Positions 13,556 to 64,000 of a DNA stretch of 64,000 nucleotides are shown in pieces. The notes beneath the pieces are model-generated. The model did not search any database, was not told where the DNA came from, and worked only from the letters and a program-made list of their open reading frames with translations. A program made the position numbers and the translations under genes. Position 1 is the first letter of the stretch; every line of letters begins with the position of its first letter. Source of the DNA: a virus; IMG/VR virus record IMGVR_UViG_3300021365_000003. One strand, given 5' to 3'.

Positions 13556-14641
13556 ATGGGGATCAAAGATCTAAAAGATATCCTAAATAAGAAAATGGGC
13601 GCAATCGTCGCTCATGATCTTACAAAGGAAAACCCAACAGAGGTGAAAGATTGGATCCCCACAGGTTCTCGGTGGCTTGACTCTATTATTTGTAAGGGTC
13701 AAGTTGCCGGGATCCCTGTTGGGAAGTGGACTGAAATCGCCGGCCTGGAGTCGACGGGTAAGTCTTACATGGCGGCACAGATTGCTGCTTCGGCTCAACG
13801 TAAAGGTATTCAGGTTGTTTATTTTGATTCAGAATCATCAATCGATCCTGCTTTCTTGACGTCGGCAGGTTGTGAGCTAGAGGATTTGCTTTATGTTCAG
13901 GCAACTACCGTTGAAGATGTGCTTGGATCAATAGAAACAATCCTAGAACAAACCGAAGATCGTGTTTTGTTTATTTGGGACTCGTTGGCTATGACACCAG
14001 CAAGAGCAGATCTAGAGAAAGATTTCAACCCTCAAGCAACAATGGCAATGAAGCCAAGAGTGCTAGCAAAGGGAACAGAAAAGCTTTCAATTCCAGTCGC
14101 AGACAAGCAAGCAACTGTTTTGATTCTAAATCAGCTCAAAACAAACATTACCTCAAACATCGCTGAGGCAATGACCACACCTTTCTTCACTCCAGGCGGC
14201 AAAGCACTTTCGTATGTTTATTCGCTTCGGATTTGGCTTACAGGTTCAAAAGCAAAGAAAAACTTTATTACAGATGAAACTGGCTTCCGCCTTGGTAAGC
14301 TTGTGCGCTGTAAGCTAGAAAAGTCAAGGTTTGGAACCGAAGGTCGAAACTGTGAGTTCAAGATTATGTTTGGGACAGACAGCCCAGGTATTCTTGATGA
14401 GGAGTCTTGGTTGGATGCAATTAAGATTTCCGATCGAGTAAAGTCCGGTGCGTGGTATACTCTAACGTTCCGTGATGGGACCGAGAAAAAGTTCCGTGCT
14501 GCTGATTGGCTCAAAGAGCTAGAAGATCCTTTATTCCGACGTGAGATCTTAGATATCATGGACGAAGTAGTAGTAAGGAAATTCGATGAAAGAACAGGAA
14601 ACGCAGAAGATTACTACGACGAAGAGAGCACCGACGAGTAG
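13556..14641 (+). CDS. uvsX: RecA/UvsX recombinase
   Basis: IPTGS..LD, Walker A GLESTGKS, YFDSE, IWDS, LNQL and TPGGKAL motifs. Confidence 0.93.
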   Translation: MGIKDLKDILNKKMGAIVAHDLTKENPTEVKDWIPTGSRWLDSIICKGQVAGIPVGKWTEIAGLESTGKSYMAAQIAASAQRKGIQVVYFDSESSIDPAFLTSAGCELEDLLYVQATTVEDVLGSIETILEQTEDRVLFIWDSLAMTPARADLEKDFNPQATMAMKPRVLAKGTEKLSIPVADKQATVLILNQLKTNITSNIAEAMTTPFFTPGGKALSYVYSLRIWLTGSKAKKNFITDETGFRLGKLVRCKLEKSRFGTEGRNCEFKIMFGTDSPGILDEESWLDAIKISDRVKSGAWYTLTFRDGTEKKFRAADWLKELEDPLFRREILDIMDEVVVRKFDERTGNAEDYYDEESTDE

Positions 14642-35170: not shown

Positions 35171-35376
35171 AATCAAAAGAAGCAGTAGATCACCCCGACC
35201 ACTACAATAAAGGCATTGAAACAATTGATTACATTGAAAGCTGGAAAATGGATTTCAATCAAGGAAACGTGATCAAGTATGTTTCACGATACTCAATGAA
35301 AGGCGGCCCAGAAGATCTCAAGAAAGCCAAATGGTATCTAGAAAGAATGATCGATCAAGAGGAAAAAAATGTATAA
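35167..35376 (+). CDS. DUF3310 / T7 gp1.7-like protein
   Basis: VDHPDHY..GIETIDYI...GNVIKY..R...KG..EDLKKA.WYL. Confidence 0.85.
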   Translation: MKSKEAVDHPDHYNKGIETIDYIESWKMDFNQGNVIKYVSRYSMKGGPEDLKKAKWYLERMIDQEEKNV

Positions 35377-46739: not shown

Positions 46740-47567
46740 ATGAAGCACCATAAACTTATAATGGAAAACTGGAGAGGCTTTATCAACGAAGGCACAATCG
46801 AAGAGTCTTCAAACCAAAGAGGCTTTGAGTACGAGAATGAAGTCATTGCAGCTTTGAATGCGGTAGGCGCTTCGGGAGATATCACATCAGGAGCAGGGGC
46901 ATCTGCTGCTGCTGCCGATGCGGACATCAAGATAGGAGATCAGATCTACAAAATTGAAGTAAAACTTGATAAAGATGCGCAGATGGGCGGAACATCACTG
47001 CGTTATTATCCCGATCGGACAGAGGGCGGAAAGTACTTTGATATTGTTTGCAAATCTGTTGAAGAAGATACAATCGACATCATGGAGGAATCTTTAACAC
47101 CAATCATTCCGGATCTAGATAAGTTTTTAGAGTTTGTCGGCGTTAGCAAGCTCCCGGCAACAATAGAAAAAGATAAATGGGTTGAAGCAGTGGCTCTTGG
47201 TTTGCTTAAGCCTTTGAACGTAAAGATCAAGAGAACAACAAGGTTCATCACCAACCACTATAAGAAAAAAGGAATTGACTATATCCAAATTGGCGGATCT
47301 GGCCTTTTCTACCTTGGTGAAAATCCAGCAAATTTGCCAGTTCCAAAACTAGAAGGTGATATCAATATTGAGCTTCGACCTGGAAGATCTGGATCGAAAA
47401 CAAGAAAAGATGGAACAAGTGTCGTTGGTGCGGGAATTCGTGTACAGGGAAGGTTACAATTTAAAGGATCATCGCCTTATACACTAGACGATCCAGAGAG
47501 CGTAAGGAAAATGCTTGCGACCAAAGAGATAGAACAAAATGATCAAGATAACAATCAAGAACAATAA
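46740..47567 (+). CDS. Hypothetical protein with a PD-(D/E)xK-like motif
   Basis: RGFEYE...ADADI...KIEVK; paralog-like to 40167. Confidence 0.6.
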   Translation: MKHHKLIMENWRGFINEGTIEESSNQRGFEYENEVIAALNAVGASGDITSGAGASAAAADADIKIGDQIYKIEVKLDKDAQMGGTSLRYYPDRTEGGKYFDIVCKSVEEDTIDIMEESLTPIIPDLDKFLEFVGVSKLPATIEKDKWVEAVALGLLKPLNVKIKRTTRFITNHYKKKGIDYIQIGGSGLFYLGENPANLPVPKLEGDINIELRPGRSGSKTRKDGTSVVGAGIRVQGRLQFKGSSPYTLDDPESVRKMLATKEIEQNDQDNNQEQ

Positions 47568-48281: not shown

Positions 48282-48659
48282 ATGAAAAACATTATGTATC
48301 AAACAATCGCTCTTGCTCTTGGAACAATCCTTATTATGGGATGCTCGGAAGAGGAAGAAACACCCCCAACTGATGACACTGGCGCTGCTGATGTTATTAG
48401 CGACGCTGAAGGATCAGGAGATGTGCCTGAAACCGACACTGTTGAAGATACCGTTGAGGATACAGTAGCCGATACTGTTGAAGACAGTGTTGAGGACGCA
48501 GTAACCGATTCGGCGGAAGATACCGTTGGAGACACAGTAGTCGATACTGATGAAACTGATGTAGAGGATGACTCCGGTTCGTCGTCTGATAGTGATGACG
48601 GATCTGATACTGATGAAACCGATGTAGAGGATGATGATGGATCTGATTCTGATGAGTAA
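48282..48659 (+). CDS. Acidic low-complexity lipoprotein
   Basis: Lipobox-like ILIMGC followed by DTVE/DTDETDVEDD repeats. Confidence 0.7.
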   Translation: MKNIMYQTIALALGTILIMGCSEEEETPPTDDTGAADVISDAEGSGDVPETDTVEDTVEDTVADTVEDSVEDAVTDSAEDTVGDTVVDTDETDVEDDSGSSSDSDDGSDTDETDVEDDDGSDSDE

Positions 48660-48772: not shown

Positions 48773-48781
48773 CGTCTTTAT

Positions 48782-48811
48782 GTGGATAAGATCCTCGCCT
48801 CGATCGTCTAA
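48782..48811 (+). repeat. 30-bp element, copy 6
   Basis: Identical core to copy 5. Confidence 0.92.
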
Positions 48812-48850
48812 CTAGCGAGCCCCCCGATCTTACTCCCCCGACGATGAAAA

Positions 48851-49048
48851 ATGAAAATTGGTGACTTAGTAGAAATGTGCTCCTTACCACTTGCCTATCG
48901 AAATGGACCAAGTAAGTACTATGGAATGGGGCTGGTAGATAAAATAATCGATTCAGATCATTATAGTGTTGATTGGATCATACTACCTTGGACGGAAGTG
49001 AGATACATACCTTATATATCCAAAGCTTTGCTAAGAGAAATAAAATGA
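48851..49048 (+). CDS. Small SH3/KOW-like protein leading array 1
   Basis: MKIGDLV...GLV...YSVDW; ATGA overlap with the first array gene. Confidence 0.65.
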   Translation: MKIGDLVEMCSLPLAYRNGPSKYYGMGLVDKIIDSDHYSVDWIILPWTEVRYIPYISKALLREIK

Positions 49049-50638
49049 ATAAACCTGAATGTAAAACTTATCCCAACGGAGACAAAGAGTGGTATCTAAA
49101 CGGAAAGCATCACCGTGAAGATGGCCCTGCTTGTGAGTATCCCAACGGAACCAAAGAATGGTGGCTAAACGGAAAGCGCCACCGTGAAGATGGTCCGGCT
49201 TGTGAGTGGGCCAACGGAGCCAAATTGTGGTATCTAAACGGTAAGCGTCACCGTGAAGATGGTCCGGCTGTTGAGTATGCCAACGGGCGCAAAGGGTGGT
49301 ATCTAAACAACAAAAAAGTCGATCCGGAAACTATTGTGGATCTATGGCTCGCAAAAAACATCTACTGCTTTTACAACCGTGAAACAAACAGTTTGGAGTT
49401 TGAGTAAAGATGAATAAACCTGAATGTAAAACTTATGCCAACGGAACCAAAGAATGGTATCTAAACGGCAAGCTTCACCGTGAAGATGGCCCGGCTGTTG
49501 AGTTGGCCAACGGAAACAAAGAATGGTATCTAAACGGCAAGCTTCACCGTGAAGATGGTCCTGCTGTTGAGAGGGCCAACGGATACAAAGAATGGCGGCT
49601 AAACGGCAAGCTTCACCGTGAAGATGGCCCGGCTGTTGAGTATGCCAGCGGAGCCAAAGAGTGGCATCTAAACGGAAAGCGCCACCGTGAAGATGGCCCG
49701 GCTGTTGAGAGGACCAACGGACACAAAGAATGGTATCTAAACGGAAAGCGCCACCGTGAAGATGGTCCGGCTTGTGAGGATACCAACGGAACCAAAGAAT
49801 GGTACGTAAACAACAAAGAAGCCGATCCGGAAACCATTGTGGATCTATGGCTCGCAAAAAACATCTACTGCTTTTACAACGTTGAAACAAACAGTTTGGA
49901 GTTTGAGTAAATGAATAAACCTGAATGTAAAACTTATGCCAACGGAGCCAAAGAATGGTATCTAAACGGCAAGCTTCACCGTGAAGATGGCCCGGCTGTT
50001 GAGTTGGCCAGCGGAAACAAAGCGTGGTTCCTAAACGACAAGCTTCACCGTGAAGATGGCCCTGCAATTGAGTATGCCAACGGAAACAAATGGTGGTTCC
50101 TAAACAACAAAAAAGCCGATCCGGAAACTATTGTGGATCTATGGCTCGCAAAGAACATCTACTGTTTTTACAACCGTGAAACAAACAGTTTGGAGTTTGA
50201 GTAAAGATGAATAAACCTGAATGTAAAATTTATGCCAACGGAACCAAAGAATGGCGGCTAAACGGAAAGCGCCACCGTGAAGATGGCCCGGCTCTAGAGT
50301 GTGCCGACGGATCCAAAGAATGGTTCCTAAACGGAAAGCGTCACCGTGAAGATGGTCCGGCTTTTGAGTGGCTCGACGGAGAAAAAGAATGGTTCCTAAA
50401 CGGCAAGCTTCACCGTGAAGATGGCCCGGCTTGTGAGTATGCCAACGGAGACAAACATTGGTATCTAAACGGCAATCTTCACCGTGAAGATGGCCCGGCT
50501 GTTGAGTATTCCAACGGAACCAAAGCGTGGTGGCTAAACCACGGAGAAGTCGATCCGGAAACCATTGTGGATCTATGGCTCGCAAAGAACATCTACTGTT
50601 TTTACAACCGTGAAACAAACAGTTTGGAGTTTGAGTAA
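49045..50638 (+). repeat. HREDGPA-repeat gene array 1: 49045..49407 (3 repeats), 49410..49910 (5), 49911..50204 (2), 50207..50638 (4)
   Basis: Four intact paralogs MNKPEC...DPETIVDLWLAKNIYCFYN.ETNSLEFE built from 69-bp units. Confidence 0.95.
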
Positions 50639-50682
50639 AAATGAAACAAATCGCTCCGGTGCGTCACTTTTTTCGATTTTAT

Positions 50683-50712
50683 GTGGATAAGATCCTCGCC
50701 TCGATCGTCTAA
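50683..50712 (+). repeat. 30-bp element, copy 7
   Basis: Lies within an 85-bp trailer shared with array 2. Confidence 0.92.
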
Positions 50713-50806
50713 CTAATGAGCGCCCAAAAGCCCACCAAGCTGCGCACCGAGGGGTTTTCGGCCCCCTCTCTTGAAACAAACCCTCCTTCAACAACAAAGG
50801 AAAAAA

Positions 50807-51292
50807 ATGTCGTTATGGAACTGGCACGTAGAATTTGAACTCAAAGAAGATCATCAAAAGATCATTGGAAAATTAACAGATGAACTTTGGAAAGAGTATG
50901 ATCTGCCGGCTGACGAACGAGAGCACTTCTTGTTTGAAGCGAGGAATGAAACAAAGTATCCTCGTTGGGGTTGGCAGGACTCCACTCAAAAAGACCTTCA
51001 TTCAGAGTTTGTTGATGCTGTTTATTCAAATTGCTTTACCACATTTTTGGAATGCTTCTTTGGTAATTTGAATGTATACGCACATAATTCTATCACAATG
51101 GAAGATTATTGTGGAGAGGAATGTTATGAAGCCGTTGATCAACTTCAAGAATTCCTTGCCTTAGTTTGTAAGCCAAAAGAAACATTCATTGAGAGCCAGT
51201 ATGTAGAGGATGACTGCTTACCCTTTAGACACGTTTTGTGTGAAGATGGATCTTGGGAGAATGTTTACCCGGCACTCAAATGGCCTGAATAA
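50807..51292 (+). CDS. Hypothetical protein
   Basis: Acidic ORF; ATG after AAGG. Confidence 0.65.
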   Translation: MSLWNWHVEFELKEDHQKIIGKLTDELWKEYDLPADEREHFLFEARNETKYPRWGWQDSTQKDLHSEFVDAVYSNCFTTFLECFFGNLNVYAHNSITMEDYCGEECYEAVDQLQEFLALVCKPKETFIESQYVEDDCLPFRHVLCEDGSWENVYPALKWPE

Positions 51293-51333
51293 CAAACAAC
51301 ACTATAATCAATTATTTCTTCTTGGAAAAAACA

Positions 51334-51579
51334 ATGAAACTAAAACTTGGAAATCTGGTTACTTTAGAAAACCCTAAGAATGGGCAACCATACAAAAACT
51401 ACTATGGCTTACTCACAAACATTAGAGACATAGAAAATAAGAATTCAAAATCAGAAATCTCAGACACAGATCCAAACTTTATTTTTTGTCAATGCACTAT
51501 TGATTGGCTTGAGTCTCCTTACGGTCAAAGAACGGAGACTTGTAACGCAACTTATGTAAGGGAGTATAACAATGCTTAG
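51334..51579 (+). CDS. Small SH3/KOW-like hypothetical protein
   Basis: LKLGNLV...YGLL...IDW pattern. Confidence 0.55.
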   Translation: MKLKLGNLVTLENPKNGQPYKNYYGLLTNIRDIENKNSKSEISDTDPNFIFCQCTIDWLESPYGQRTETCNATYVREYNNA

Positions 51580-51763
51580 AACTTTTATGTCCGGATTCTC
51601 ACAACAAGCTGGCAAAATGGTAGCAGAAGTTGTGGTACAAATGGCGATGCAAACTAAAACTGCACAAACACTAATTTATTCTGTAATGCAACAACCAGCC
51701 GCAGAGATTGAAGAGAAAACTAGGCCAATGGGGTTTGCGCCAAGTGGAAAAGGAGTGGAATAA
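51572..51763 (+). CDS. Small hypothetical protein
   Basis: Coupled ORF with SD GGAG. Confidence 0.55.
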   Translation: MLRTFMSGFSQQAGKMVAEVVVQMAMQTKTAQTLIYSVMQQPAAEIEEKTRPMGFAPSGKGVE

Positions 51764-52467
51764 TGTCTATGAAGATCAAAGTGACTATCCCTTCAGTAGA
51801 GTTCGTACAAGCTGATTCCGCTATTAGGCGATCTTTGTTCAAGATCCTAGAAGCCGGCGGAACAATTCCAGAAAATGATATGATGGAGGTTTGGAGGGGT
51901 CTTAGCGGACCTGTGCGTTGTGAGTGGGCAGTCAAAATGGCTGGAACAATACAATTGCAGCCTACACATATCCAAGAACTACAAGAACACCACAAGCGAT
52001 CAACTAAGCTACAGACATACCTCTTTACCTCTCAAAAAAGCTTATCTGATGAAGAAACTAACAGGATGTTTGCGACCTGGACCGAGGTGGTAAAAAGAGC
52101 GTTCAATAAACAGATGTCTTCAGGCTACCCGCTATACGGATCAGGTTCAGGCAAACTTAGGAGATTCGTTGTATCTCTCCTGGGGAGCGGTTGTCATTAC
52201 ATTGACCGATTAGACGAACAAACTTTGTATGACATAAGTTCATTCGTTTCTTCTCACGTCACAGCGGCTGATACAAAGCTCGGGCACTCGTATAAATATG
52301 TGCCTTGGTTTATCAGTCAATATATTGAGATGCTAAGCCGGGGCACAAGGAATTCCGTCTTGGTGCCTTTGCTGGCTTCTCCAAATCAGAAAATTAGCAA
52401 ATTAGCTGAAAGCGCTTATAGCAAAGTAGCAATAAATAGCCTAGATAATTCATCTATCTTGAAATAA
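51763..52467 (+). CDS. Hypothetical protein
   Basis: 234 aa; SD AGGAG. Confidence 0.65.
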   Translation: MSMKIKVTIPSVEFVQADSAIRRSLFKILEAGGTIPENDMMEVWRGLSGPVRCEWAVKMAGTIQLQPTHIQELQEHHKRSTKLQTYLFTSQKSLSDEETNRMFATWTEVVKRAFNKQMSSGYPLYGSGSGKLRRFVVSLLGSGCHYIDRLDEQTLYDISSFVSSHVTAADTKLGHSYKYVPWFISQYIEMLSRGTRNSVLVPLLASPNQKISKLAESAYSKVAINSLDNSSILK

Positions 52468-52500
52468 ATCACCCCGATCGGCCACTTTTTTCGATTTTAT

Positions 52501-52530
52501 GTGGATAAGATCCCTCGCTCGATCGTCTAA
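52501..52530 (+). repeat. 30-bp element, copy 8
   Basis: GTGGATAAGATCCCTCGCTCGATCGTCTAA. Confidence 0.92.
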
Positions 52531-52588
52531 CTGATGAGAGACGAATTCCCGCCGATAAAGGCAAAAACAACAACCTAGTAGGAAAAAA

Positions 52589-53995
52589 ATGACAGAACGA
52601 ACTTGTAGATATTGTGGTGAAGCCGGACATAATGTTCGCAGTTGTAAAGAGAAAGCTCGCACAACTGATTTGGCTGCACAGATCTTGCCACGCCTGTTGA
52701 GAGATCTACCAGCAGCAATCAAGAAAGCCGCTCCGATCCATTCGCTTGATGCATCAATGATTGAATGCGAAGTAACGCCAAGATCTGGTTATATCAAGCT
52801 CAGTTGGAACCAGTCTTCTGAACTGCAGAACTTGATTGTTGATAAGATTAGCAATTACTCTAAGTTCCAATTTGAAGATTCTCGATTGCTAAAAGAATCT
52901 ATGTCGATCAAGATCAAAGAAGGTAAAAACCAAGTACTGTCTTTCTTTGTAACTGGAGAAGTACCCAATGAGAATCACTATTATTTTAGGTTACAAAAGG
53001 CAATTGGGTTTTTGGAACTAGACTTTAGTGGTTTTGTTCAAAGTATGCTAGAGGCCAACAGCGACAATCAGTACAAGAAGATTTGGAAGGAAGTTGTAGA
53101 GCCGACTATGAAAAACGGCAACTACTCAAATTATGAAGGAAAAGAAGGTGCTCTAGTCATTGCTTTCTTGCGTTCTCATCTCAGGAACGTTCAAAGTTCA
53201 GCGCTGAATAAAAGAAACGGTAGTGGAAGTGAGTTCTTTTCTTCTATGGTTTCTGCTATCCATATGGATTCAAGCAACAAGTCTTCAGCATACAAGAATG
53301 TAGAGCATACAAAATATGAAGGAGAATGGTATAACGATCAGTCTCCGGACATAGAGATCAGTTGGATGGATGATGAACGGCTTAGTAGAAACCTTAGCTT
53401 CAAGCTAACACAAGCGCTGACGTCAGAGATTGAAACTTTAGTCAAAGAGTATGCGCAAGAGCTACTTTTCAGCCATGCCAAGAGTATAACATTGCAATCC
53501 GCCAGTAGAGGATACGGCATTAGTACGATTTCGCACTTGATTGATTTTATGATACCCAACTACAACAAACTAGATGGAGTCAATAATACAGCCGAAGTAA
53601 ATTCTGCTTACTTTAGCACTGTGACAGTCGGTGGAAACTTGTTCTATGAAGAAGGCACGCCTATGAAGGCCACCACCGACATGATGGAAAAGTGTACTGC
53701 TCTCCTTCAGCCACGCAAGACAAGAGATCTTGCTAGTGACTTCATAAAAATGGCTCATTCCGGCGGGTACGCACAAACGTTTGAGAAGGGAAAAATGATC
53801 GGCGGAACAACCGGCTCCTCATCAATTGCGAGAACATTGGATGTGAGACAAAAGAAGTGGAACGGCGAACCTGAAGCTGTTACATATGTTGCCTTCTACC
53901 CTGGTAACAATTGCTCAGTCTCTATTAGTGATCTTGTAAACTCCATTTTGGAAATATACGCTTTTGCTGAAATGTCGTCAAAGGAGAATGAATGA
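52589..53995 (+). CDS. Hypothetical protein with an N-terminal zinc knuckle
   Basis: CRYCGEAGHNVRSC (CCHC). Confidence 0.75.
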   Translation: MTERTCRYCGEAGHNVRSCKEKARTTDLAAQILPRLLRDLPAAIKKAAPIHSLDASMIECEVTPRSGYIKLSWNQSSELQNLIVDKISNYSKFQFEDSRLLKESMSIKIKEGKNQVLSFFVTGEVPNENHYYFRLQKAIGFLELDFSGFVQSMLEANSDNQYKKIWKEVVEPTMKNGNYSNYEGKEGALVIAFLRSHLRNVQSSALNKRNGSGSEFFSSMVSAIHMDSSNKSSAYKNVEHTKYEGEWYNDQSPDIEISWMDDERLSRNLSFKLTQALTSEIETLVKEYAQELLFSHAKSITLQSASRGYGISTISHLIDFMIPNYNKLDGVNNTAEVNSAYFSTVTVGGNLFYEEGTPMKATTDMMEKCTALLQPRKTRDLASDFIKMAHSGGYAQTFEKGKMIGGTTGSSSIARTLDVRQKKWNGEPEAVTYVAFYPGNNCSVSISDLVNSILEIYAFAEMSSKENE

Positions 53996-54183
53996 AAGAA
54001 GGGGATTTAGTAACTATGCCCATGATGCCTATGCGCACAAGGGAGTGTCCCGACAATCTAGGCTTAGTTATTGGGTGGGATGAAGCAGGAGATCCGTGGA
54101 TAGATTGGATTTACCCAACTAAGTTTTGGATGAGTCCATCGGTCGAATACAAAGAAGACCTGCTAATCGTATCGGAGGCATAG
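53992..54183 (+). CDS. Small SH3/KOW-like hypothetical protein
   Basis: MKEGDLV...LGLVI...IDW...EDL.IVS. Confidence 0.6.
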   Translation: MKEGDLVTMPMMPMRTRECPDNLGLVIGWDEAGDPWIDWIYPTKFWMSPSVEYKEDLLIVSEA

Positions 54184-54458
54184 AATTGAGAATTGGTAAA
54201 GTGATAAAATACAAGACCCAGCAGGTAAAGGTTGTAGGGTTTTTAGACGCAGAGAATGAAATAACTTATAAGTATAAACCCCAGCATCGGATCATCGTTC
54301 AAGACAAAGAAGGTGTCAAGTGGGTTCATCAAAACAACAAGGAAAGAAAATGAGTTCAGAAAAAATCACAAAAAAGCAAATTTGTCAGGCTTGCTTTAGT
54401 TTTATTGATAGTAAAGAAAAGAAGTCGCTTTGCCGACACTGCGAAACAAAGTATAAAA

Positions 54459-54704
54459 ATGAAGCAAAAGTTTGAGTTAGCAGATCTGGTATGTTCTACC
54501 TACGGGACCACATATGGCGAGGACATCTCTAACTTTGATAGTGACCGCAGTATGGGCTTGGTTGTTGATATTATCGAGCCAGTGATTGCCGATCTGGGTG
54601 AGGACAAGCCGCCACTAGAATGTGTCTATTGTATTGAGTGGCTAACCGGAGCAAGCTGTGGGAGCATTGAGAAGTTTAGTGGTAAATACCTAATGAAGGT
54701 ATGA
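54459..54704 (+). CDS. Small SH3/KOW-like protein leading array 2
   Basis: FELADLV...MGLVVDI...YCIEW; start position uncertain. Confidence 0.55.
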   Translation: MKQKFELADLVCSTYGTTYGEDISNFDSDRSMGLVVDIIEPVIADLGEDKPPLECVYCIEWLTGASCGSIEKFSGKYLMKV

Positions 54705-54714
54705 GTTTGAGTAA

Positions 54715-56965
54715 ATGAATAAACCTGAATGTAAAACTTATCCCAACGGAAACAAAGAATGGTTCCTAAACGGAGAGCATCACCGTGAAGATGGTCCGGC
54801 TGTTGAGTGGGCCAACGGAGAAAAATGGTGGTATCTAAACGGCAAGCTTCACCGTGAAGATGGTCCGGCTGCTGAGTTGGGCGACGGAACCAAAGAATGG
54901 TGGCTAAACGGAAAGCGTCACCGTGAAGATGGTCCGGCTAGTGAGTTGGGCAGCGGAATCAAATATTGGTATCTAAACGGAAAGCGCCACCGTGAAGATG
55001 GCCCGGCTTGCGAGTGGGCCAACGGATACAAAGCGTGGTGGCTAAACCACGAAAAAGTCGATCCGGAAACAATTGTGGATCTATGGCTCGCAAAAAACAT
55101 CTACTGTTTTTATAACCGTGAAACAAACAGTTTGGAGTTTGAGTAAAGATGAATAAACCTGAATGTAAAACTTATGCCAACGGAACCAAAGAATGGTGGC
55201 TAAACGACAGGCTTCACCGTGAAGATGGCCCTGCAGTTGAGTATGCCAACGGAAACAAAGAATGGTATCTAAACGACAAGCTTCACCGTGAAGATGGCCC
55301 TGCAATTGAGTTGGCCAACGGACACAAATCGTGGCATCTAAACGGAAAGTGTCACCGTGAAGATGGCCCGGCTGTTGAGTTGGCCAACGGAAACAAAGCG
55401 TGGTATCTAAACCACGAAAAAGTCGATCCGGAAACTATTGTGGATCTATGGCTGGCAAAGAACATCTACTGCTTTTACAACGTTGAAACAAACAGTTTAG
55501 AGTTTGAGTAAAGATGAATAAACCTGAATGTAAAACTTATCCCAACGGAGACAAAGTGTGGTACCTAAACGGAGAGCATCACCGTGAAGATGGTCCGGCT
55601 GTTGAGTGGGCCAACGGACACAAAGTGTGGTGTCTAAACGGAAAGCGCCACCGTGAAGATGGCCCGGCTATTGAGTATGCCAGCGGAGACAAAGAATGGT
55701 ATCTAAACGACAAGCTTCACCGTGAAGATGGTCCGGCTGTTGAGTATGCCAGCGGAACCAAAGAATGGTATCTAAACCACGAAAAAGTCGATCCGGAAAC
55801 TATTGTGGATCTATGGCTGGCAAAGAACATCTACTGCTTTTACAACGTTGAAACAAACAGTTTAGAGTTTGAGTAAATGAATAAACCTGAATGTAAAACT
55901 TATCCCAACGGAGACAAAGTGTGGTCGCTAAACGGCAAGCTTCACCGTGAAGATGGCCCGGCTGTTGAGTGGGCCAACGGGCGCAAAGAATGGTTTCTAA
56001 ACGGAAAGCTTCACCGTGAAGATGGCCCGGCTATTGAGTATGCCAACGGGCGCAAAGAATGGTTTCTAAACGGAAAGCTTCACCGTGAAGATGGCCCGGC
56101 TAGTGAGTGGGCCAACGGAACCAAAGTGTGGTATCTAGACGACGAAAAAGCCGATCCGGAAACTATTGTGGATCTATGGCTCGCAAAAAACATCTACTGC
56201 TTTTACAACGTTGAAACAAACAGTTTAGAGTTTGAGTAAATGAATAAACCTGAATGTACAACTTATCCCAACGGACACAAAGTGTGGCATCTAAACGGAA
56301 AGCGTCACCGTGAAGATGGCCCTGCTTATGAGTATGCCAGCGGAACCAAAGCGTGGTGGCTAAACGGAAAGCTTCACCGTGAAGATGGTCCGGCTGTTGA
56401 GTATGCCAGCGGAACCAAAGAATGGTTTCTAAACGGAAGGCGCCACCGTGAAGATGGCCCGGCTAGTGAGAGGGCCAACGGAACCAAAGTGTGGTATCTA
56501 AACAATAAAGAAGTCGATCCGGAAACCATTGTGGATCTATGGCTGGCAAGGAACATCTACTGCTTTTACAACCCTGAAACAAACAGTTTGGAGTTTGAGT
56601 AAATGAATAAACCTGAATGTACAACTTATCCCAACGGAAGCAAAGACTGGTATCTAAACGGCATGCTTCACCGTGAAGATGGTCCGGCTGTTGAGTGGGC
56701 CAACGGAACCAAAGAATGGCGGCTAAACGGAAAGCGCCACCGTGAAGATGGTCCGGCTAGTGAGTGGGCCAACGGAAACAAAGTGTGGTGGCTAAACGGA
56801 GAACTCCACCGTGAAGATGGTCCTGCTTGTGAGTATGCCGACGGATCCAAAGAATGGTGGCTAAACAATAAAGAAGTCGATCCGGAAACTATTGTGGATC
56901 TATGGCTCGCAAAAAACATCTACTGCTTTTACAACGTTGAAACAAACAGTTTAGAGTTTGAGTAA
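54715..56965 (+). repeat. HREDGPA-repeat gene array 2: 54715..55146 (4 repeats); 55149..55511, 55514..55876, 55877..56239, 56240..56602, 56603..56965 (3 each)
   Basis: Six intact head-to-tail paralogs separated by 0 or 2 nt. Confidence 0.95.
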
Positions 56966-57009
56966 AAATGAAACAAATCGCTCCGGTGCGTCACTTTTTT
57001 CGATTTTAT

Positions 57010-57039
57010 GTGGATAAGATCCTCCGCTCGATCGTCTAA
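57010..57039 (+). repeat. 30-bp element, copy 9
   Basis: GTGGATAAGATCCTCCGCTCGATCGTCTAA. Confidence 0.92.
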
Positions 57040-57086
57040 CTATTGAGCGCAGAATGACCCCGACACCGATTACCAAGGAAGAAAAA

Positions 57087-57767
57087 ATGGAAAATGTAAA
57101 TGCTACTTTAGAGTATCTCGCTTCTTCAAAGATCCAAGCTCGCCTTTCAGACTGGGAAAAGAGTTTTACAAATTCTCTAAGCACACAGTTCAAGAATCGT
57201 GGGGAACTATCAAGTCGCCAGATTGATACTTTAGGTGGTGTATACCAAAAGCACGCTCCTAGTATGATCAACGCACAAGCCAAATTTGAGAAGCAGTTCA
57301 AAGAAGATGGAACCACCCAGCAACTGTGGGAAGCAGTAATCTCTTACTACGAAGAAAACCCGCCTTATTACTCTAATGTCATCCGAGAAACAAGAAACAA
57401 CAAAGAGTTTATTCCTCATCGGGCTTTGTATATCAAGATGACAGAAAACACCTACTTCCAAAAGTGGCTAGAACTAAAAAACAAAGAGCCGGCTTTTGAC
57501 GTTGGTGATCTAGTAAGAGCGCACGGCCAAAGTCCAAATCAGATATTTCTACAAAACGCATATGGTAAGTTAGGAACCAGGCCACACATTTATAGCCATA
57601 GCAATTGGGCGAAAGCAAAGAAAGAAAAGCATATGTTCTTAATTGAGAGCATCTGTAAAGACACTTGGACTGCTTCTATGGGATCGAAACTATACAAAGT
57701 TATAGACATCTCAGGGGACACACCTTACAGTCTTTACTTTGAAGAGCGTCACCTCAAAAAGGTTTAG
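57087..57767 (+). CDS. Hypothetical protein
   Basis: LSDWEKSF..SL..Q...LS.RQ motif and a C-terminal FDVGDLV SH3-like segment. Confidence 0.7.
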   Translation: MENVNATLEYLASSKIQARLSDWEKSFTNSLSTQFKNRGELSSRQIDTLGGVYQKHAPSMINAQAKFEKQFKEDGTTQQLWEAVISYYEENPPYYSNVIRETRNNKEFIPHRALYIKMTENTYFQKWLELKNKEPAFDVGDLVRAHGQSPNQIFLQNAYGKLGTRPHIYSHSNWAKAKKEKHMFLIESICKDTWTASMGSKLYKVIDISGDTPYSLYFEERHLKKV

Positions 57768-57773
57768 CCACTT

Positions 57774-58088
57774 ATGAAAAAGAACGACGTACATACTATC
57801 GATGCTGTAAAAGGCGCTCTTACACCAATCAATACAGTGGCTTTGGCTTGTTTTGTTGCTGGTAAGTTTACAGGCATCTGTGCCGCAGCAACAATCCTTT
57901 CCTTACAACTAGAGCTTGGAAAGGTGCTTTTGATCGCATACGCTTTGTTAGTTGGAACATCAATCGCTCTTTCTCTTATTGACTGGTTTCTAATCTCGTC
58001 AAGAACAAAGAAAGAAAAGCCAGAACTATCAGAGCAGGAACTAATCAAAATGGCTAATCAATACGGGCTAAAGATTACAAAAGCCTGA
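57774..58088 (+). CDS. Membrane protein
   Basis: Two hydrophobic segments. Confidence 0.6.
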   Translation: MKKNDVHTIDAVKGALTPINTVALACFVAGKFTGICAAATILSLQLELGKVLLIAYALLVGTSIALSLIDWFLISSRTKKEKPELSEQELIKMANQYGLKITKA

Positions 58089-58112
58089 TTAGATAAGTTG
58101 CTCTTGTGAAGA

Positions 58113-58314
58113 GTCTTTTGAGAGCTTGGACATTTGTTCGAGTTATCCGTTAGTGACCAATGTTAGAGGTAAACTTGGGAAAGCGAATATTATTACGAAA
58201 CCTCAGTGTTGGTGAGAGCCCAACAAAAAGTCGTAATGGGAAATAGGAAATCCGCCTAGTAAGTCCAATCAAAAGGCAAAGGAGATAGAGGTTCAAGTCC
58301 TCTTTACGGCACTA
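58113..58314 (+). ncRNA. Candidate structured RNA ending in a tRNA-like domain (58230..58311)
   Basis: Acceptor GTCGTAA/TTACGGC, D arm GGA-AATAGGAAA-TCC, T arm AGAGG-TTCAAGT-CCTCT; non-canonical anticodon arm; ORF-free gap on the + strand. Confidence 0.6.
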
Positions 58315-58398
58315 AAAATTTTGTGAAACAAAACCTTTTTTCGGCCCCCCCGCTTTTGAAAGAAAGCACCACCACAACAAAAAGAGCAGAGAGAGAAA

Positions 58399-58590
58399 AT
58401 GACAGGAGAACAATACACATACCTGAAAGCAATCGAACTAATGGGAGATTGGGTTTCTTTTCTTAAAGATGTTCGCACAGAAAGTGAAGAATCAGGACTT
58501 GAAGAACCTGAACCTACTGAGATGATTGAGTTTTTCGAGCAACAAATCAGATCGATCGTACTAGCAATCCCCCCTAGTGGTGAAGCCTAA
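58399..58590 (+). CDS. Small hypothetical protein
   Basis: 63-aa ORF. Confidence 0.5.
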   Translation: MTGEQYTYLKAIELMGDWVSFLKDVRTESEESGLEEPEPTEMIEFFEQQIRSIVLAIPPSGEA

Positions 58591-58618
58591 AACAAACACA
58601 AACAACAAAGGAGAAAAG

Positions 58619-58795
58619 ATGAGGCCACCAGATTTTGAAATTAGCCAAGAAGTCGTAGTTGATGGAACAGACTATGGAACTATTACTTTTATCGATAAAA
58701 ATGACGATGAAGAAATGTATTGCGTTGAAAGTGCCTTGACCGGCTCAACTTATTACATTAGAAACACACGCCGGCTGGAGGCAGCAAACACCTGA
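58619..58795 (+). CDS. Small SH3-like hypothetical protein
   Basis: SD AAGGAG; FEISQEV...YGTI...YCV. Confidence 0.55.
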   Translation: MRPPDFEISQEVVVDGTDYGTITFIDKNDDEEMYCVESALTGSTYYIRNTRRLEAANT

Positions 58796-58860
58796 CAACA
58801 TCGATTGCTTACACAACATCACACTATTTAGAAGAACGCTCCAAGAACAAGGAAAAAAAC

Positions 58861-59226
58861 ATGGTAAAGATCCAACAGAAAGAATACTTTGAACAGAAAG
58901 CACTGGAACTTGAGGAACTTATCTCAGGGTTGTATCCAGAGCTATACACAGAACCAAGGATCGATCCAGACGAAGGAACTGTAGCATTACAGGCAGAACT
59001 ACGTATTCCGCACTTTGAAGGAACGTTCTTTGTTGAGTGGGTGTATTATGTCAATGAAGAGGACAAAGACTTTGCTTACGAGTGTGTAATCTTTACCACC
59101 GAAGGGGAAGAGCTTGGGTTGGTGTATTCAGACAGCCCAATGAAGGCAGCAACAGAATGTGCTCAGGAGGTGCAGAAAATGCTTCTTGAAACAAGTGGCT
59201 GGCTGTCTTCAGTCTTTCTTGAATAA
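58861..59226 (+). CDS. Acidic hypothetical protein
   Basis: 121 aa; ACTATTTA upstream. Confidence 0.6.
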   Translation: MVKIQQKEYFEQKALELEELISGLYPELYTEPRIDPDEGTVALQAELRIPHFEGTFFVEWVYYVNEEDKDFAYECVIFTTEGEELGLVYSDSPMKAATECAQEVQKMLLETSGWLSSVFLE

Positions 59227-59259
59227 AAGCCCTCCCCGATCCGATTTTTTCGATTTTAT

Positions 59260-59289
59260 GTGGATAAGATCCTCCGCTCGATCGTCTAA
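59260..59289 (+). repeat. 30-bp element, copy 10
   Basis: Identical core to copy 9. Confidence 0.92.
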
Positions 59290-59364
59290 CTAATGAACCG
59301 GCGGCGCTCGTCTTACACTGCGAGCGGTTAGCCATTTATAATTACTCTCTAAAGGAGAAAGTGT

Positions 59365-60504
59365 ATGACTGTACAATTTGATTTTACTTCTGCTCTTCCG
59401 CTTATCAACAGCATTCTCGACGTGAAACTTCCCGTTATGGTCCGAGGTCGTCACGGTGTCGGAAAGTCGGAGGTTGCATACATGATCGGTCGTGAAAGAA
59501 AACTTCCTGTTGTGGAGATTCGTGCTTCACAGCTTGCCGACGTTGGTGATCTTGTGGGACTTCCTATTGTTTCTGAAACATCGGAGTATACCAAGTTCAG
59601 CCCAACTGAAAGGCTTTGGATTGCGTGTGATCGTCCGGTGCTTCTATTCTTGGATGAGGTAGACCGTGGAACGGATGACATTACTCAGGCATTCATGGAA
59701 CTCACAGATAGTAGAAAGATTGCTGGGCAACATCTACACCCTGAAACTTTGATTATTGCTGCAACAAACGGCGGCGATCGTGAAGGTGCTGATCAATACA
59801 GTGTGCGAGACTTTGATCCTGCTGTAATGGATAGGTGGGTATGCTATGATGTTGAACCATCTGTTCAGGATTGGATCCAATGGGCAACTGATGGAAACAT
59901 CAACAAGATGATCACCGAGTTCGTACAAAAGAATACTAGCACATCCGGTGTGTGTGTATTCTTGGAGAACTTGGGAGATTTCCAACCTAACAAAGTATAC
60001 CCTTCTCGACGTTCTTGGAAGCGCTTCAATGATTGCCTTGAAGCAGCCGGTCTAATGAAGAAAGATAGTTTTGACATTTCAGTCATTCACAATCTAGGAG
60101 TAGGCTTTATTGGTGTTGAGGCGGCGGTTGGGTTTATGTCCTTCTTGGAAAACTACAAGTTTGATGTAAGCCTGGATGATATCCTCCTTGGAAAGAAAAC
60201 ACCAGACTTCAATGCTTGGGACGCTGTTGATCATACTCGCTATACATCACAAGCTGTTTCTTTGGGTTGGTTCTCTGACTGGTCAAAGTCCAATCCTGAT
60301 GAAAAAGAGGTGACTCGTGTTGCAAAGCGTGTTGCAAAGTGGATGGCTTCTGATACTTTCCCGGCAGACAACTCTGTAACCTTCTTCAAGGAGATTGTTA
60401 CGAGCACAAAGGAAGGAAAGGTATTCCACAAGTACTGTGGTAAGGCCCTCAACCAACTGTTTGTGCACTCCAACAGGACAGACAATGAGATCAATCAGTC
60501 TTAG
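59365..60504 (+). CDS. MoxR-type AAA+ ATPase
   Basis: Walker A GRHGVGKS, DLVGLP, Walker B LFLDEVDR, AATN, DPA..DRW and PSRRSW motifs. Confidence 0.9.
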   Translation: MTVQFDFTSALPLINSILDVKLPVMVRGRHGVGKSEVAYMIGRERKLPVVEIRASQLADVGDLVGLPIVSETSEYTKFSPTERLWIACDRPVLLFLDEVDRGTDDITQAFMELTDSRKIAGQHLHPETLIIAATNGGDREGADQYSVRDFDPAVMDRWVCYDVEPSVQDWIQWATDGNINKMITEFVQKNTSTSGVCVFLENLGDFQPNKVYPSRRSWKRFNDCLEAAGLMKKDSFDISVIHNLGVGFIGVEAAVGFMSFLENYKFDVSLDDILLGKKTPDFNAWDAVDHTRYTSQAVSLGWFSDWSKSNPDEKEVTRVAKRVAKWMASDTFPADNSVTFFKEIVTSTKEGKVFHKYCGKALNQLFVHSNRTDNEINQS

Positions 60505-60558
60505 TAAGCACGTCTAGTAATTAAGAACTCCGTCAATACAAAGAATCCAGCTAAGATA

Positions 60559-61794
60559 ATGTCATATACACGCAAAGAATTCAACAAAGACCTTTTCGCA
60601 ACTGTAAAGAACGAAGTGTTCTTGGCACATTGCGTTGCGCAAATTGCTCGCACACCTACAAACGATCTGCCAACAGCGGCGATTGGCTACCACAAAGAAA
60701 AGAACAAGTTCACTATGTGGTACAACCCTGAGTTTATGGGTGGGTTGTCGGCAAAGCATCGTCGAGGTGTTATTCTTCATGAGTTGTTTCATTTCATCAA
60801 CCAGCACATTACGACTCGGCTGCCAGAACCAAAGTATATGAAGATTTGGAACTATGCAACCGACCTTGCGATCAATGATCATATCAGTCATCTATTGCCG
60901 GAGTTCTGCTTAGTTCCGGGGCGTGGTCCTTTCTCGGATCTTGAGAAGTTCCCACACAATAAAACTGCTGACTTCTACTTTGAGATCCTGAAAGAAAACC
61001 AGGACAAGCTAGAAGAGAAGATCAAAGAAATGATGAAGGAGGCAGAATCGCAGGCTTCTGAAGATGGTGAAGGCGCAAGTGGAAACTCGTTCTTTGATAA
61101 TCATGATGAATGGCTTTCCGATCCCAGTGAAGCAGCAGGTGGATCACAAGAAATCGCAGAGCAGAAGGCAAAGCAGATTTTGCAAAAAGCTACAAATGAA
61201 GCTACAAAGGCTGCTAGTTGGGGAATGGTGTCTGCTGAAATGCGAAAGAAGATCATTGAGGCATTGACACCACAAATCAATTGGAAGTCTGTTCTGCGCC
61301 AGTTCATTCAGTCTTCGCAAAAAGCAAACAAGCGAAACTCGGTAATGAAGATCAATCGGCGTAAGCCATACATTCGACCGGGACGGCGACAAAACTATGT
61401 TGCAAACATTGCCGTGGCTGTGGATATGTCAGGCTCGGTAGATGAAAAACTTCTCACTAGTTTCTTTGCTGAACTTGATGGACTTGCAAAGTATGCGACT
61501 TTCACTGTTGCGCCATTTGATACTAAGGTTCTTGACGAGCATGTTTATGTTCATGAAAAAGGAAAGAAAGGCCCAAAGGAAAGGGTGTATTGCGGTGGAA
61601 CTGACTTTAGAGCGCCCACAGAGTATGTGAATGAGCGCAAAGAGTTTGACGCATTGATTGTTCTCACTGACTTGTGTGCTCCGGCCCCTGGATCTTGTCG
61701 GGTAAAGCGAATGTGGCTGACGAATGAAGCAAATGCCGAACGGCCAGCATTTGATCCAAAGTCAGTCAATGAGCGCCTGCTAGTTGTAAAGTGA
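60559..61794 (+). CDS. DUF2201-type metallopeptidase + VWA domain protein
   Basis: HELFH, WNYATDLAIN, MIDAS-like VDMSGS, GGTDF and LTD motifs. Confidence 0.88.
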   Translation: MSYTRKEFNKDLFATVKNEVFLAHCVAQIARTPTNDLPTAAIGYHKEKNKFTMWYNPEFMGGLSAKHRRGVILHELFHFINQHITTRLPEPKYMKIWNYATDLAINDHISHLLPEFCLVPGRGPFSDLEKFPHNKTADFYFEILKENQDKLEEKIKEMMKEAESQASEDGEGASGNSFFDNHDEWLSDPSEAAGGSQEIAEQKAKQILQKATNEATKAASWGMVSAEMRKKIIEALTPQINWKSVLRQFIQSSQKANKRNSVMKINRRKPYIRPGRRQNYVANIAVAVDMSGSVDEKLLTSFFAELDGLAKYATFTVAPFDTKVLDEHVYVHEKGKKGPKERVYCGGTDFRAPTEYVNERKEFDALIVLTDLCAPAPGSCRVKRMWLTNEANAERPAFDPKSVNERLLVVK

Positions 61795-62102
61795 GGTTGG
61801 AACAAATGCGTCATCAACTTGGGAGCTTAGTTGTGAGGAAAGTCAATGTTCGCATAGACTGTGAGGAGTGTGGTCCAAGTTATGTTCCATGTTCTCTGGT
61901 TTCACTGATACTAGACAACCAAGTTCGACATTCAGGCCGAGGTGTCAAGTTGGAGTTAGAACCTCTATACTTTCAAACATTTCCGACTCCAAAAGAAACT
62001 GAAAGCATCCCGCATAGTCAAGAGTGGCTTTTAGACTATTACACAAAACCTATCAACCGATTCACGTCAAGAGGATCGCTACACAAGTTCCAAGATGTAT
62101 GA
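61791..62102 (+). CDS. Hypothetical protein leading array 3
   Basis: LGSLVV and CxxC; ATGA overlap with the first array gene. Confidence 0.55.
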   Translation: MRLEQMRHQLGSLVVRKVNVRIDCEECGPSYVPCSLVSLILDNQVRHSGRGVKLELEPLYFQTFPTPKETESIPHSQEWLLDYYTKPINRFTSRGSLHKFQDV

Positions 62103-64000
62103 ATAAACCTGAATGTAAAACTTATCCCAGCGGAAACAAACATTGGTTCCTAAACGGAAAGCGCCACCGTGAAGATGGCCCGGCTATTGAGAGGGCCAAC
62201 GGAACCAAAGAATGGTTTCTAAACGGAGAACACCACCGTGAAGATGGCCCGGCTGTTGAGTATGCCAACGGAAGCAAAGCGTGGTGGCTAAACGACAAGC
62301 TTCACCGTGAAGATGGCCCGGCTGTTGAGTATGCCAACGGGCGCAAAGGGTGGTATCTAAACGGAAAGCGCCACCGTGAAGATGGTCCGGCTTGTGAGGA
62401 TACCAACGGATACAAAGAATGGCTTCTAAACGACGAAGAAGTTGATCCGGAAACCATTGTGGATCTATGGCTGGCAAAGAACATCTACTGCTTTTACAAC
62501 GTTGAAACTGATTGCTTAGAGTTTGAGTAAAGATGAATAAACCTGAATGTGAAACTTATCCCAACGGACACAAAGCGTGGTATCTAAACGGAAAGCGTCA
62601 CCGTGAAGATGGTCCGGCTTGTGAGTATCCCAGCGGAACCAAAGTGTGGTGTCTAAACGGAAAGCGCCACCGTGAAGATGGCCCTGCTTGTGAGAATGCC
62701 AGCGGAGACAAAGAATGGTATCTAAACGACAAGCTTCACCGTGAAGATGGTCCGGCTGTTGAGTGGGCCAACGGAACCAAAGAGTGGTGGCTAAACGACG
62801 AAGAAGTCGATCCGGAAACTATTGTGGATCTATGGCTCGCAAAAAACATCTACTGTTTTTACAACCGTGAAACAAACAGTTTAGAGTTTGAGTAAATGAA
62901 TAAACCTGAATGTAAAACTTATCCCAACGGAACCAAAGCGTGGTATCTAAACGGAAAGCGTCACCGTGAAGATGGCCCTGCTTGTGAGTATTCCAACGGA
63001 AACAAAGAATGGTTCCTAAACGGAAAGCTTCACCGTGAAGATGGCCCAGCTGTTGAGTGGGCCAACGGAGGCAAAGAATGGCGGCTAAACGGAAAGCTTC
63101 ACCGTGAAGATGGCCCTGCTGCTGAGTATGCCAACGGAACCAAATATTGGTATCTAAACGGCAAGCTTCACCGTGAAGATGGCCCTGCTGTTGAGTATAC
63201 CAACGGAACCAAATATTGGTGTCTAAACAACAAAGAAGTCAATCCAGAAACCATTGTGGATCTATGGCTGGCAAGGAACATCTACTGCTTTTACAACCCT
63301 GAAACAAACAGTTTGGAGTTTGAGTAAATGAATAAACCTGAATGTAAAACTTATCCCAACGGAGACAAAGTGTGGTATCTAAACGGTAAGCATCACCGTG
63401 AAGATGGCCCGGCTATTGAGTGGGCCAACGGAGACAAAGTGTGGTATCTAAACGGTAAGCATCACCGTGAAGATGGTCCGGCTGTTGAGGATGCCAACGG
63501 AAACAAAGTGTGGTACCTAAACGGCAAGCTTCACCGTGAAGATGGTCCGGCTGTTGAGAGGGCCAGCGGACACAAAGAATGGTTCCTAAACGGAAAGCTT
63601 CACCGTGAAGATGGCCCGGCTTGTGAGAGGGCCAACGGAAACAAAGAATGGTATCTAAACCACGAAGAAGCCGATCCAGAAACCATTGTGGATCTATGGC
63701 TGGCAAGGAACATCTACTGCTTTTACAACCCTGAAACAAACAGTTTGGAGTTTGAGTAAATGAATAAACCTGAATGTACAACTTATCCCAACGGACACAA
63801 AGACTGGTATCTAAACGGCAAGCTTCACCGTGAAGATGGTCCGGCTGTTGAGTGGGCCAACGGAACCAAAGAATGGCGGCTAAACGGAAAGCGCCACCGT
63901 GAAGATGGCCCGGCTGTTGAGTGGGCCAACGGAAACAAAGAATGGCGGCTAAACGGAAAGCGCCACCGTGAAGATGGTCCGGCTTGCGAGTGGGCCAACG
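62099..64000 (+). repeat. HREDGPA-repeat gene array 3: 62099..62530 (4 repeats), 62533..62895 (3), 62896..63327 (4), 63328..63759 (4), 63760..>64000 (at least 3, truncated by window end)
   Basis: Same architecture as arrays 1 and 2; continues past the window. Confidence 0.95.

What the first reader, a model, noticed from the sequence alone, without database searches (positions are those of the whole stretch)
49045..64000. Three tandem arrays of modular, hypervariable repeat-protein genes: a candidate phage-encoded combinatorial binder library
Seen in sequence: 15 head-to-tail paralogs in three arrays (4, 6 and at least 5 genes). Each is constant N-cap MNKPEC + n x 23-aa unit + constant C-cap DPETIVDLWLA(K/R)NIYCFYN.ET..LEFE. 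Complete genes are 97, 120, 143 or 166 aa, exactly 51+23n (n=2-5). All 14 complete ORFs are intact and no two are identical. Internal genes follow a (G/A)GAG about 9-11 nt before the ATG, contributed by the previous gene's end. With the solo gene at 33579 I count 54 HREDGPA units in the window. Established: HRxDGPA/MORN-like beta-hairpin repeats occur in phages and giant viruses. Cap-repeat-cap proteins with variable repeat number are the design of lamprey VLRs and DARPins, and TALEs likewise vary repeat number and specificity residues. Inference: this is a diversifying repertoire of binding proteins (for example anti-defence factors or host-protein binders), expanded and shuffled by recombination between 69-bp units, possibly using the phage's own UvsX. 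I know of no described system with this organisation.
Basis: partly seen in the sequence, partly recalled or inferred. Interest (0 to 1): 0.92.

Follow-up and report, generated by a model that had tools for sequence, protein, structure and literature searches.

The report
Fast-evolving phage repeat-protein gene arrays
A large marine phage carries 20 genes for small repeat proteins with a fixed frame and one fast-changing surface, which related phages reshuffle wholesale; they look like an evolving set of protein binders used inside the host cell, but their targets are unknown.

Summary
Observation confirmed: 15 intact head-to-tail genes, lengths 51+23n, 54 units. The 169-kb genome has 16 such genes plus 4 with another cap. 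Not an artefact: array genes recur letter for letter in nine other assemblies. The model (pLDDT 96.6) is a MORN-like beta-hairpin ribbon. Six variable positions map, by inference, to one face, the MORN binding groove. Relatives with 92-96% identical flanks keep the three slots but have different gene numbers and no shared unit. Non-synonymous divergence on the face is about twice the neutral divergence; the scaffold is frozen. Silent sites are homogenised per lineage. In a single-copy bacterial orthologue beside sat-aprBA the same positions are fixed repeat by repeat, as expected of a binding surface. Best reading: an early, cytoplasmic binder repertoire evolving by gene conversion and unequal crossing-over under diversifying selection. 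It is not an on-the-fly library: no reverse transcriptase, and arrays are stable within a population. Targets and the anti-defence role are untested. The family is huge (at least 7,969 proteins), has no dedicated model, and I found no paper on it. This scan has already noted similar arrays in other phages.

The parts
49045..50638 (+). Array A: four repeat-protein genes (n=3,5,2,4), last genes of a promoter-like unit
   Evidence: identical in L082; one gene at this slot in relative L098
54715..56965 (+). Array B: six genes (n=4,3,3,3,3,3)
   Evidence: identical in L080, L082, L085; four genes in L098, three in L100
62099..64000 (+). Array C: four complete genes (n=4,3,4,4) and the start of a fifth; six in the genome, ending at window-equivalent 64625
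   Evidence: identical in L080, L081; six different genes in L099/L100, at least five in L098, 16-17 or more in L095/L096
33579..33974 (+). Solo gene, second cap family, three units drawn from the same unit pool
   Evidence: 10 of 12 units of this family have their nearest neighbour in the main family
48776..48815 (+). Repeated promoter-like element (GGATAA-N16-GTCTAA) heading the unit that ends in array A
   Evidence: promoter function inferred from orientation and spacing
50639..50716 (+). 3' flank of array A with the next promoter-like element; near-identical to the 3' flank of array B (56966-57043)
52495..52534 (+). Promoter-like element heading the unit that ends in array B
59254..59293 (+). 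Promoter-like element heading the unit MoxR-vWA-ORF-array C
59365..61794 (+). MoxR-type AAA ATPase and DUF2201 metallopeptidase-vWA gene pair; syntenic landmark, not shown to be part of the system
   Evidence: no match near repeat genes in 79 other viral loci
13556..14641 (+). RecA/UvsX-like recombinase; candidate engine of shuffling (untested)
   Evidence: TIGR02012 E 8e-34, below the curated cut-off

Best explanation
The arrays encode small cytoplasmic proteins made before or during phage DNA replication. Each is a MORN-like ribbon of 23-residue beta-hairpins closed by a short N-cap strand and a helix-plus-hairpin C-cap. One face and the HREDGPA loop are a fixed scaffold. The other face (unit positions 1, 5, 7, 9, 14, 22) is a protein-binding groove. 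Gene conversion and unequal crossing-over among 69-bp units and whole genes homogenise the scaffold, change repeat and gene number and reshuffle face residues; selection favours new face variants. The product is an inherited, fast-evolving repertoire of binders to host proteins that themselves vary, most likely used to block or divert host functions including defence. Shown: anatomy, stability within a population, turnover between strains, excess non-synonymous diversity, per-lineage homogenisation. Predicted: fold. Inferred: face geometry, binding, timing, host targets.
For: Fold: pLDDT 96.6, pTM 0.84; top PDB hits are MORN1 (E 1.8e-4) and MORN4/Myo3a (Z 8.0, rmsd 4.2, 113 aligned). Motif mapping onto the MORN consensus of PMC7725318 puts positions 22, 1, 5, 9 on the groove-lining LxY and YEGEW residues; that groove binds the Myo3a tail. 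Selection: diversity at first and second bases of face codons is 2.7-5.0 times that of four-fold silent sites in six genomes, p 0.0004-0.005. Against the nearest unit, face pN is 0.27 versus silent divergence 0.10-0.14 in flanking genes and scaffold pN 0.002-0.008. Turnover: 0 of 26 and 0 of 30 units of close relatives lie within 2 nt of a unit here. Concerted evolution: the scaffold Arg codon is CGT in 100% of units here, CGC in 84% in L095, CGA in 95% in L002; 31 of 36 caps are nearest to a cap of their own genome. Recombination: 64-78% of site pairs are incompatible and linkage falls with distance, p 0.006. Natural control: in 15 single-copy bacterial orthologues, most beside sat and aprBA, positions 7, 9, 14 are fixed per repeat yet differ between repeats; this signal tracks phage variability, rho 0.70, p 2e-4. 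Fusions to MazG and DUF3310 fit a portable adaptor. The same promoter-like element precedes the recombinase and polymerase regions, not the structural block.
Against: No target or binding is shown. The allele-step test gave p 0.01 here but 0.13 and 0.20 in relatives. Silent sites may not be neutral, and sites within a unit are not independent. MORN similarity is moderate (TM about 0.45, Z at most 8.0). The face assignment rests on secondary structure and hairpin rules, not coordinates. Arrays are unchanged across samples of one population, so selection is episodic rather than continuous. The host is unknown.
Confidence: 0.6

Rival explanations
1. Dosage accordion with a tolerant surface. All paralogs do one job (one target, a scaffold or a decoy); tandem repeats amplify and shuffle as a by-product of recombination, and the variable face is only unconstrained.
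For: Tandem 69-bp repeats recombine by themselves; gene number swings from 1 to 6 at one slot and to 17 or more in a sister phage. Within face codons the step-based non-synonymous and silent rates are similar (3.4 versus 3.9). Whole-unit pN is below pS (0.15 versus 0.21).
Against: Face pN exceeds neutral divergence about twofold between strains and 2.7-5 fold within genomes. The same positions are conserved repeat by repeat in the single-copy orthologue while other surface positions (11, 13, 17) drift. Face residues are rich in Tyr, Trp, Arg, Phe (38% together).
Confidence: 0.22
2. Binders of phage-encoded partners or of other mobile elements (adaptors for the neighbouring MoxR-vWA pair, for phage enzymes, or exclusion factors against competing phages), not of host proteins.
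For: Array C follows MoxR-vWA here and in all close relatives. Repeats are fused to MazG and DUF3310 in other phages. Arrays sit beside a relaxase in mobile elements of Janthinobacterium and Duganella.
Against: MoxR and vWA are slow-evolving (2-3% amino-acid change) and have no match near repeat genes in 79 other viral loci. A self-partner gives no reason for diversifying selection.
Confidence: 0.1
3. Targeted mutagenesis of DGR type diversifies the variable codons.
For: Position 5 is NNC in 66 of 68 units and holds all six single-step changes at the two adenines of AAC.
Against: No reverse transcriptase in the 93% complete genome. Adenines at silent positions of scaffold codons are fixed (AAA 68/68, GAA 68/68, CTA 67/68), which adenine-directed mutagenesis would not leave. 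No template repeat: all units lie inside ORFs.
Confidence: 0.03
4. Virion-displayed receptor-binding or decoration proteins that widen host range.
For: Variable beta-ribbons are used as adhesins elsewhere (Fusobacterium MORN2, PMC4222103). Some distant members carry long N-terminal leaders like those on likely head proteins.
Against: These genes lie far from the tail and baseplate block, behind the promoter-like element shared with replication genes, and show no signal peptide or leader in the sequence.
Confidence: 0.04
5. Assembly artefact.
For: Short-read assemblers make chimeras in repeats; chimeric versions exist as singletons on short contigs.
Against: Identical array genes in nine other assemblies; reference proteins are on 9-16 contigs each; units differ by about 12 of 69 nt; arrays in the same slots in relatives.
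Confidence: 0.01

Closest known systems
MORN repeat proteins (MORN1 6t4d/6t68/6t69, MORN4-Myo3a 6jle; PMC7725318)
   Same: 23-residue period, one beta-hairpin per repeat, elongated twisted sheet, NGKxH turn; the variable positions map to the groove that binds protein in MORN4.
   Different: No GxG and no YEGEW motif; hairpin loop two residues shorter, linker two longer (HREDGPA). The groove is conserved in MORN but hypervariable here. Dedicated caps, tandem gene arrays, phage-borne.
Fusobacterium MORN2 gene expansion (PF07661; PMC4222103)
   Same: 22-23 aa repeats, variable repeat number, local duplication, strain-variable gene content, unknown function.
   Different: MORN2 proteins there carry signal peptides and are proposed adhesins; these are cytoplasmic, phage-borne and score below the PF07661 cut-off (23.4 versus 29.6 bits).
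DUF6745 (PF20530) and uncharacterised 'MORN-like' proteins of giant viruses and jumbo phages
   Same: Shares the HxxxGPA motif; structural neighbours in Harvfovirus (TM 0.80, rmsd 1.4), megaviruses, Atu_ph07 and P12053L.
   Different: Only about 20-30 of 206 profile positions match. No function is known, and no paper names DUF6745 or the motif.
Lamprey VLRs, DARPins, TALEs (from my own knowledge, not tested)
   Same: Cap-repeat-cap design with a fixed frame, variable surface residues and variable repeat number.
   Different: No somatic assembly from donor cassettes; every copy is a complete inherited gene; different fold; no repeat-to-target code shown.
PeSL cassettes in hyperplastic regions of T4-type phages (PMC2839356)
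   Same: Repeated promoter cassettes among small non-core genes; arrays A and B share a near-identical 3' flank with such a cassette.
   Different: PeSLs are sigma-70-like and shuffle unrelated genes; here the element looks ECF-like and the shuffling acts inside one paralog family. Cassette-mediated exchange was not tested.
Diversity-generating retroelements
   Same: Codon-focused hypervariability on a fixed scaffold.
   Different: No reverse transcriptase, no template repeat, no adenine-wide mutagenesis.

Membership tests
Canonical MORN (PF02493) | 23-residue repeat forming one beta-hairpin in an elongated sheet | tested here: met
   Period 69 nt; model and MORN fold hits
Canonical MORN (PF02493) | GxG and YEGEW motifs | tested here: not met
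   Unit consensus lacks both against the consensus in PMC7725318; no PF02493 hit
Canonical MORN (PF02493) | Protein binding through the central groove | not testable with these tools
   Only inferred from motif mapping and selection pattern
MORN_2 / YwqK-like (PF07661) | Score above the Pfam cut-off | tested here: not met
   Best 23.4 bits versus 29.6
MORN_2 / YwqK-like (PF07661) | Export signal, as in Fusobacterium members | tested here: not met
   By inspection, the 8-residue N-cap has no hydrophobic region; no predictor was run
DUF6745 (PF20530) | Score above cut-off with coverage of the domain | tested here: inconclusive
   One paralog passes (29.3 versus 27 bits) by summing repeats over positions 63-93 of 206; others fail
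Diversity-generating retroelement | Reverse transcriptase in the element | tested here: not met
   PF00078 search of the genome, 0 matches; genome 93% complete
Diversity-generating retroelement | Adenine-specific variation and a non-coding template repeat | tested here: not met
   Silent adenines fixed; all 68 units are in ORFs
VLR-type assembled repertoire | Incomplete germline gene completed from donor cassettes, with clone-to-clone diversity | tested here: not met
   All copies are complete genes; arrays are the same across samples
Phage anti-defence proteins | Rescue of a phage from a defence system, or binding to a defence protein | not testable with these tools
   Needs experiment; host unknown
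PeSL cassette | Sigma-70-like promoter joined to a terminator stem-loop | tested here: inconclusive
   No sigma-70 match at the elements and a terminator call before only one of them; motif looks ECF-like

The most novel reading that the evidence does not exclude
A phage counterpart of an antibody repertoire: each paralog neutralises a different, fast-evolving host immune protein, with specificity written as a six-residue code per repeat on a MORN-type groove and renewed by recombination. It would be a widespread, so far unrecognised class of modular counter-defence proteins in phages, giant viruses and mobile elements.
Probability: 0.3. Interest if true: 0.9.

Novelty: new variant of a known kind. 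Interest (0 to 1): 0.64.

Why it matters
Known phage counter-defence proteins are mostly one-off small genes (my own knowledge). A very large family that keeps a fixed frame and varies one surface would be a general solution to the arms race, and each paralog would be a bait for finding host defence proteins. The family is testable now: Celeribacter phage P12053L and Agrobacterium phage Atu_ph07 are cultured carriers, and cultured bacteria (Magnetovibrio blakemorei, Janthinobacterium, Duganella) carry it too. A compact natural binder scaffold with tens of thousands of variants also has value for protein engineering.

Tried and rejected
DGR: rejected. Adaptor for the neighbouring MoxR-vWA pair as a general rule: rejected, no match in 79 loci; a direct scan for MoxR relatives found none. 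Homodimer through the constant cap: the complex prediction gave no answer, and is used neither way. PDB sequence search: nothing significant. PADLOC and NCBIfam: no match for the repeat proteins; PHROGs only weak partial hits. Host and phage identity: the polymerase has only about 30% matches among cultured phages. Transcription: two metatranscriptome runs cover the arrays, but as contigs that also cover nearly the whole stretch, so expression is not shown. Within-population variants: L083 has an extra unit in gene A3, and about ten chimeric proteins exist, but they are singletons on short or low-depth contigs and cannot be told from misassembly. The three-gene difference between L095 and L096 (99.6% identical upstream) may be real but was not confirmed by reads. 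Turnover statistic: zero shared units is highly unlikely at 4% flank divergence (p below 1e-7) but not at 8% (p about 0.1), so the pN versus pS comparison carries the claim. Literature searches for the motif, DUF6745 and phage MORN arrays found nothing relevant; the library lacks most subscription papers. The original MORN4/Myo3a paper was not held.

Full report
Observation. The three arrays are as described: 14 complete, intact ORFs of 97-166 aa fitting 51+23n, a fifteenth cut by the window end, and 54 units with the solo gene. The window lies in a 168,882-base virus record, 93% complete, with a DnaE-type polymerase, GroEL and a RecA-like gene. The genome holds 16 genes of this cap type and 4 of a second cap type, 68 units in all, all on one strand. 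Sequencing runs that hold the stretch are marine. The host is unknown.

Artefact check. Array genes recur without a mismatch, bar one SNP and one 2-nt gap, in nine other assemblies, and reference proteins sit on 9-16 contigs each. These may come from one sampling campaign, so they show assembly robustness and short-term stability more than independence. Chimeric versions are singletons on short contigs and cannot be told from misassembly.

Anatomy. In the 56 main-family units eleven positions are invariant and position 23 nearly so; six are hypervariable (1, 5, 7, 9, 14, 22; 1.5-3.0 bits). The same positions are the main variable ones in most other lineages examined. The model has pLDDT 96.6: a ribbon of beta-hairpins, then a helix and a hairpin. 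Best solved matches are MORN1 (E 1.8e-4) and MORN4/Myo3a (Z 8.0, rmsd 4.2, 113 aligned), a moderate similarity. Strand alternation and hairpin pairing put the six variable positions on one face and the invariant K, W, L, H, A, E on the other. Mapping to the MORN consensus of PMC7725318 makes positions 22, 1, 5 and 9 the equivalents of the groove-lining residues, and that groove binds protein in MORN4. This mapping is inference; I did not have coordinates.

Evolution between strains. Relatives with 92-96% identical flanks keep the three slots but differ in content: slot A has 4 genes here and 1 in L098; slot B 6, 4 and 3; slot C 6, at least 5 and 6; repeat numbers run from 1 to 6. None of 26 and 30 units is within 2 nt of a unit here. 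Flanking genes differ by pS 0.10-0.14 and pN 0.02-0.035. Units, compared even with their nearest match, differ by pN 0.27 on the face and 0.002-0.008 on the scaffold. A sister phage at about 75% identity has 16-17 or more genes at slot C, and two near-identical versions differ by a three-gene block.

Mechanism of diversification. Silent codons are swept per lineage, caps cluster by genome (31 of 36), units mix freely between the two cap families, and linkage within a unit is very low and falls with distance. That is concerted evolution by gene conversion and unequal crossing-over. Face codons hold 2.7-5 times the diversity of four-fold silent sites in six genomes. A step-count test was significant here (p 0.01) but not in relatives, so selection is well supported, not proven. 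A DGR is ruled out: no reverse transcriptase, and silent adenines are fixed. Nothing shows diversity generated within a generation.

A natural control. About a dozen alphaproteobacterial genomes, mostly Rhodospirillales, carry one copy between sat and aprM-aprBA. Across 15 orthologues each repeat keeps its own residues at positions 7, 9 and 14 (77-88% of the variation explained by repeat index) while positions 11 and 17 drift (28%). This signal correlates with phage variability (rho 0.70). The face that changes fast in the phage is held fixed where the partner is presumably fixed, which favours a binding surface.

Context. An element reading GGATAA-N16-GTCTAA occurs about 17 times, pointing towards downstream genes where I checked, including replication genes and a tRNA. 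Each array ends such a unit, and arrays A and B share their 3' flank. The proteins show no export signal. I infer early or middle cytoplasmic expression. RNA runs cover the arrays but do not show transcription.

Distribution. At least 7,969 relatives of similar length exist. Arrays of 5-20 genes with lineage-specific caps are common in uncultured phages, occur beside a relaxase in bacterial mobile elements, and have structural neighbours in giant viruses. Some are fused to MazG or DUF3310. Two cultured phages carry members. No dedicated family model and no paper were found. Earlier notes of this scan describe the same kind of array in other phages; they are unchecked and not counted as support.

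Verdict. A real, undescribed variant of MORN-like repeat proteins organised as a fast-evolving gene repertoire. It works like a repeat-protein binder family; it is not a member of canonical MORN, DGR or VLR systems. Binder repertoire against host proteins 0.6; specifically counter-defence about 0.3. Interest 0.64.

Noticed in passing
window 12647, 25196, 25310, 26932, 46625, 48776, 50677, 52495, 57004, 59254 (+), about 7 more beyond the window: Repeated intergenic element with a perfect DnaA box, usually two GATC sites and ECF-like promoter spacing (GGATAA-N16-GTCTAA); its orientation follows the downstream genes where checked.
   Followed up: partly
L167:3902-4660 and L143, L154, L158, L160, L161, L165, L169, L174, L175, L178: Single-copy gene of this repeat family next to aprM-aprBA (sat on the other side in several) in Rhodospirillales, with a conserved code per repeat; candidate scaffold for sulfur-oxidation enzymes.
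   Followed up: partly
L107:3387-6764, L126:3226-5860, L151: Six- to seven-gene arrays wedged between a mobC-like gene and an MbeA-type relaxase in Janthinobacterium and Duganella; Acidovorax L151 has the same mob genes beside a repeat gene.
   Followed up: partly
L006:2946-3692, L006:1871-2284, L019:2136-2822, L057, L059, L060: Repeats fused to MazG or DUF3310 domains in other marine phages.
   Followed up: partly
genome, window-equivalent 72641-77875: Several unrelated ORFs share an N-terminal MKIT..L...IKEE leader, next to an ECF-like sigma factor gene; possibly head-packaged proteins.
   Followed up: no
window 46740-47567: Variable slot: replaced by different genes in L098 and bounded by loose ends in several sequencing runs.
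   Followed up: no
window 48282-48659: Lipoprotein-like ORF with an acidic 12-nt tandem repeat region.
   Followed up: no
window 32036-33577 and 35369-36391: Adenylosuccinate synthetase-like (PurA; also a weak PurZ match) and IMP dehydrogenase/GMP reductase-like genes.
   Followed up: no
window 63000 joined to 55331: Both RNA runs of one study hold an in-frame unit joining a C3-like left part to a B2-like right part with a new three-codon stretch; a strain variant or a relative.
   Followed up: no
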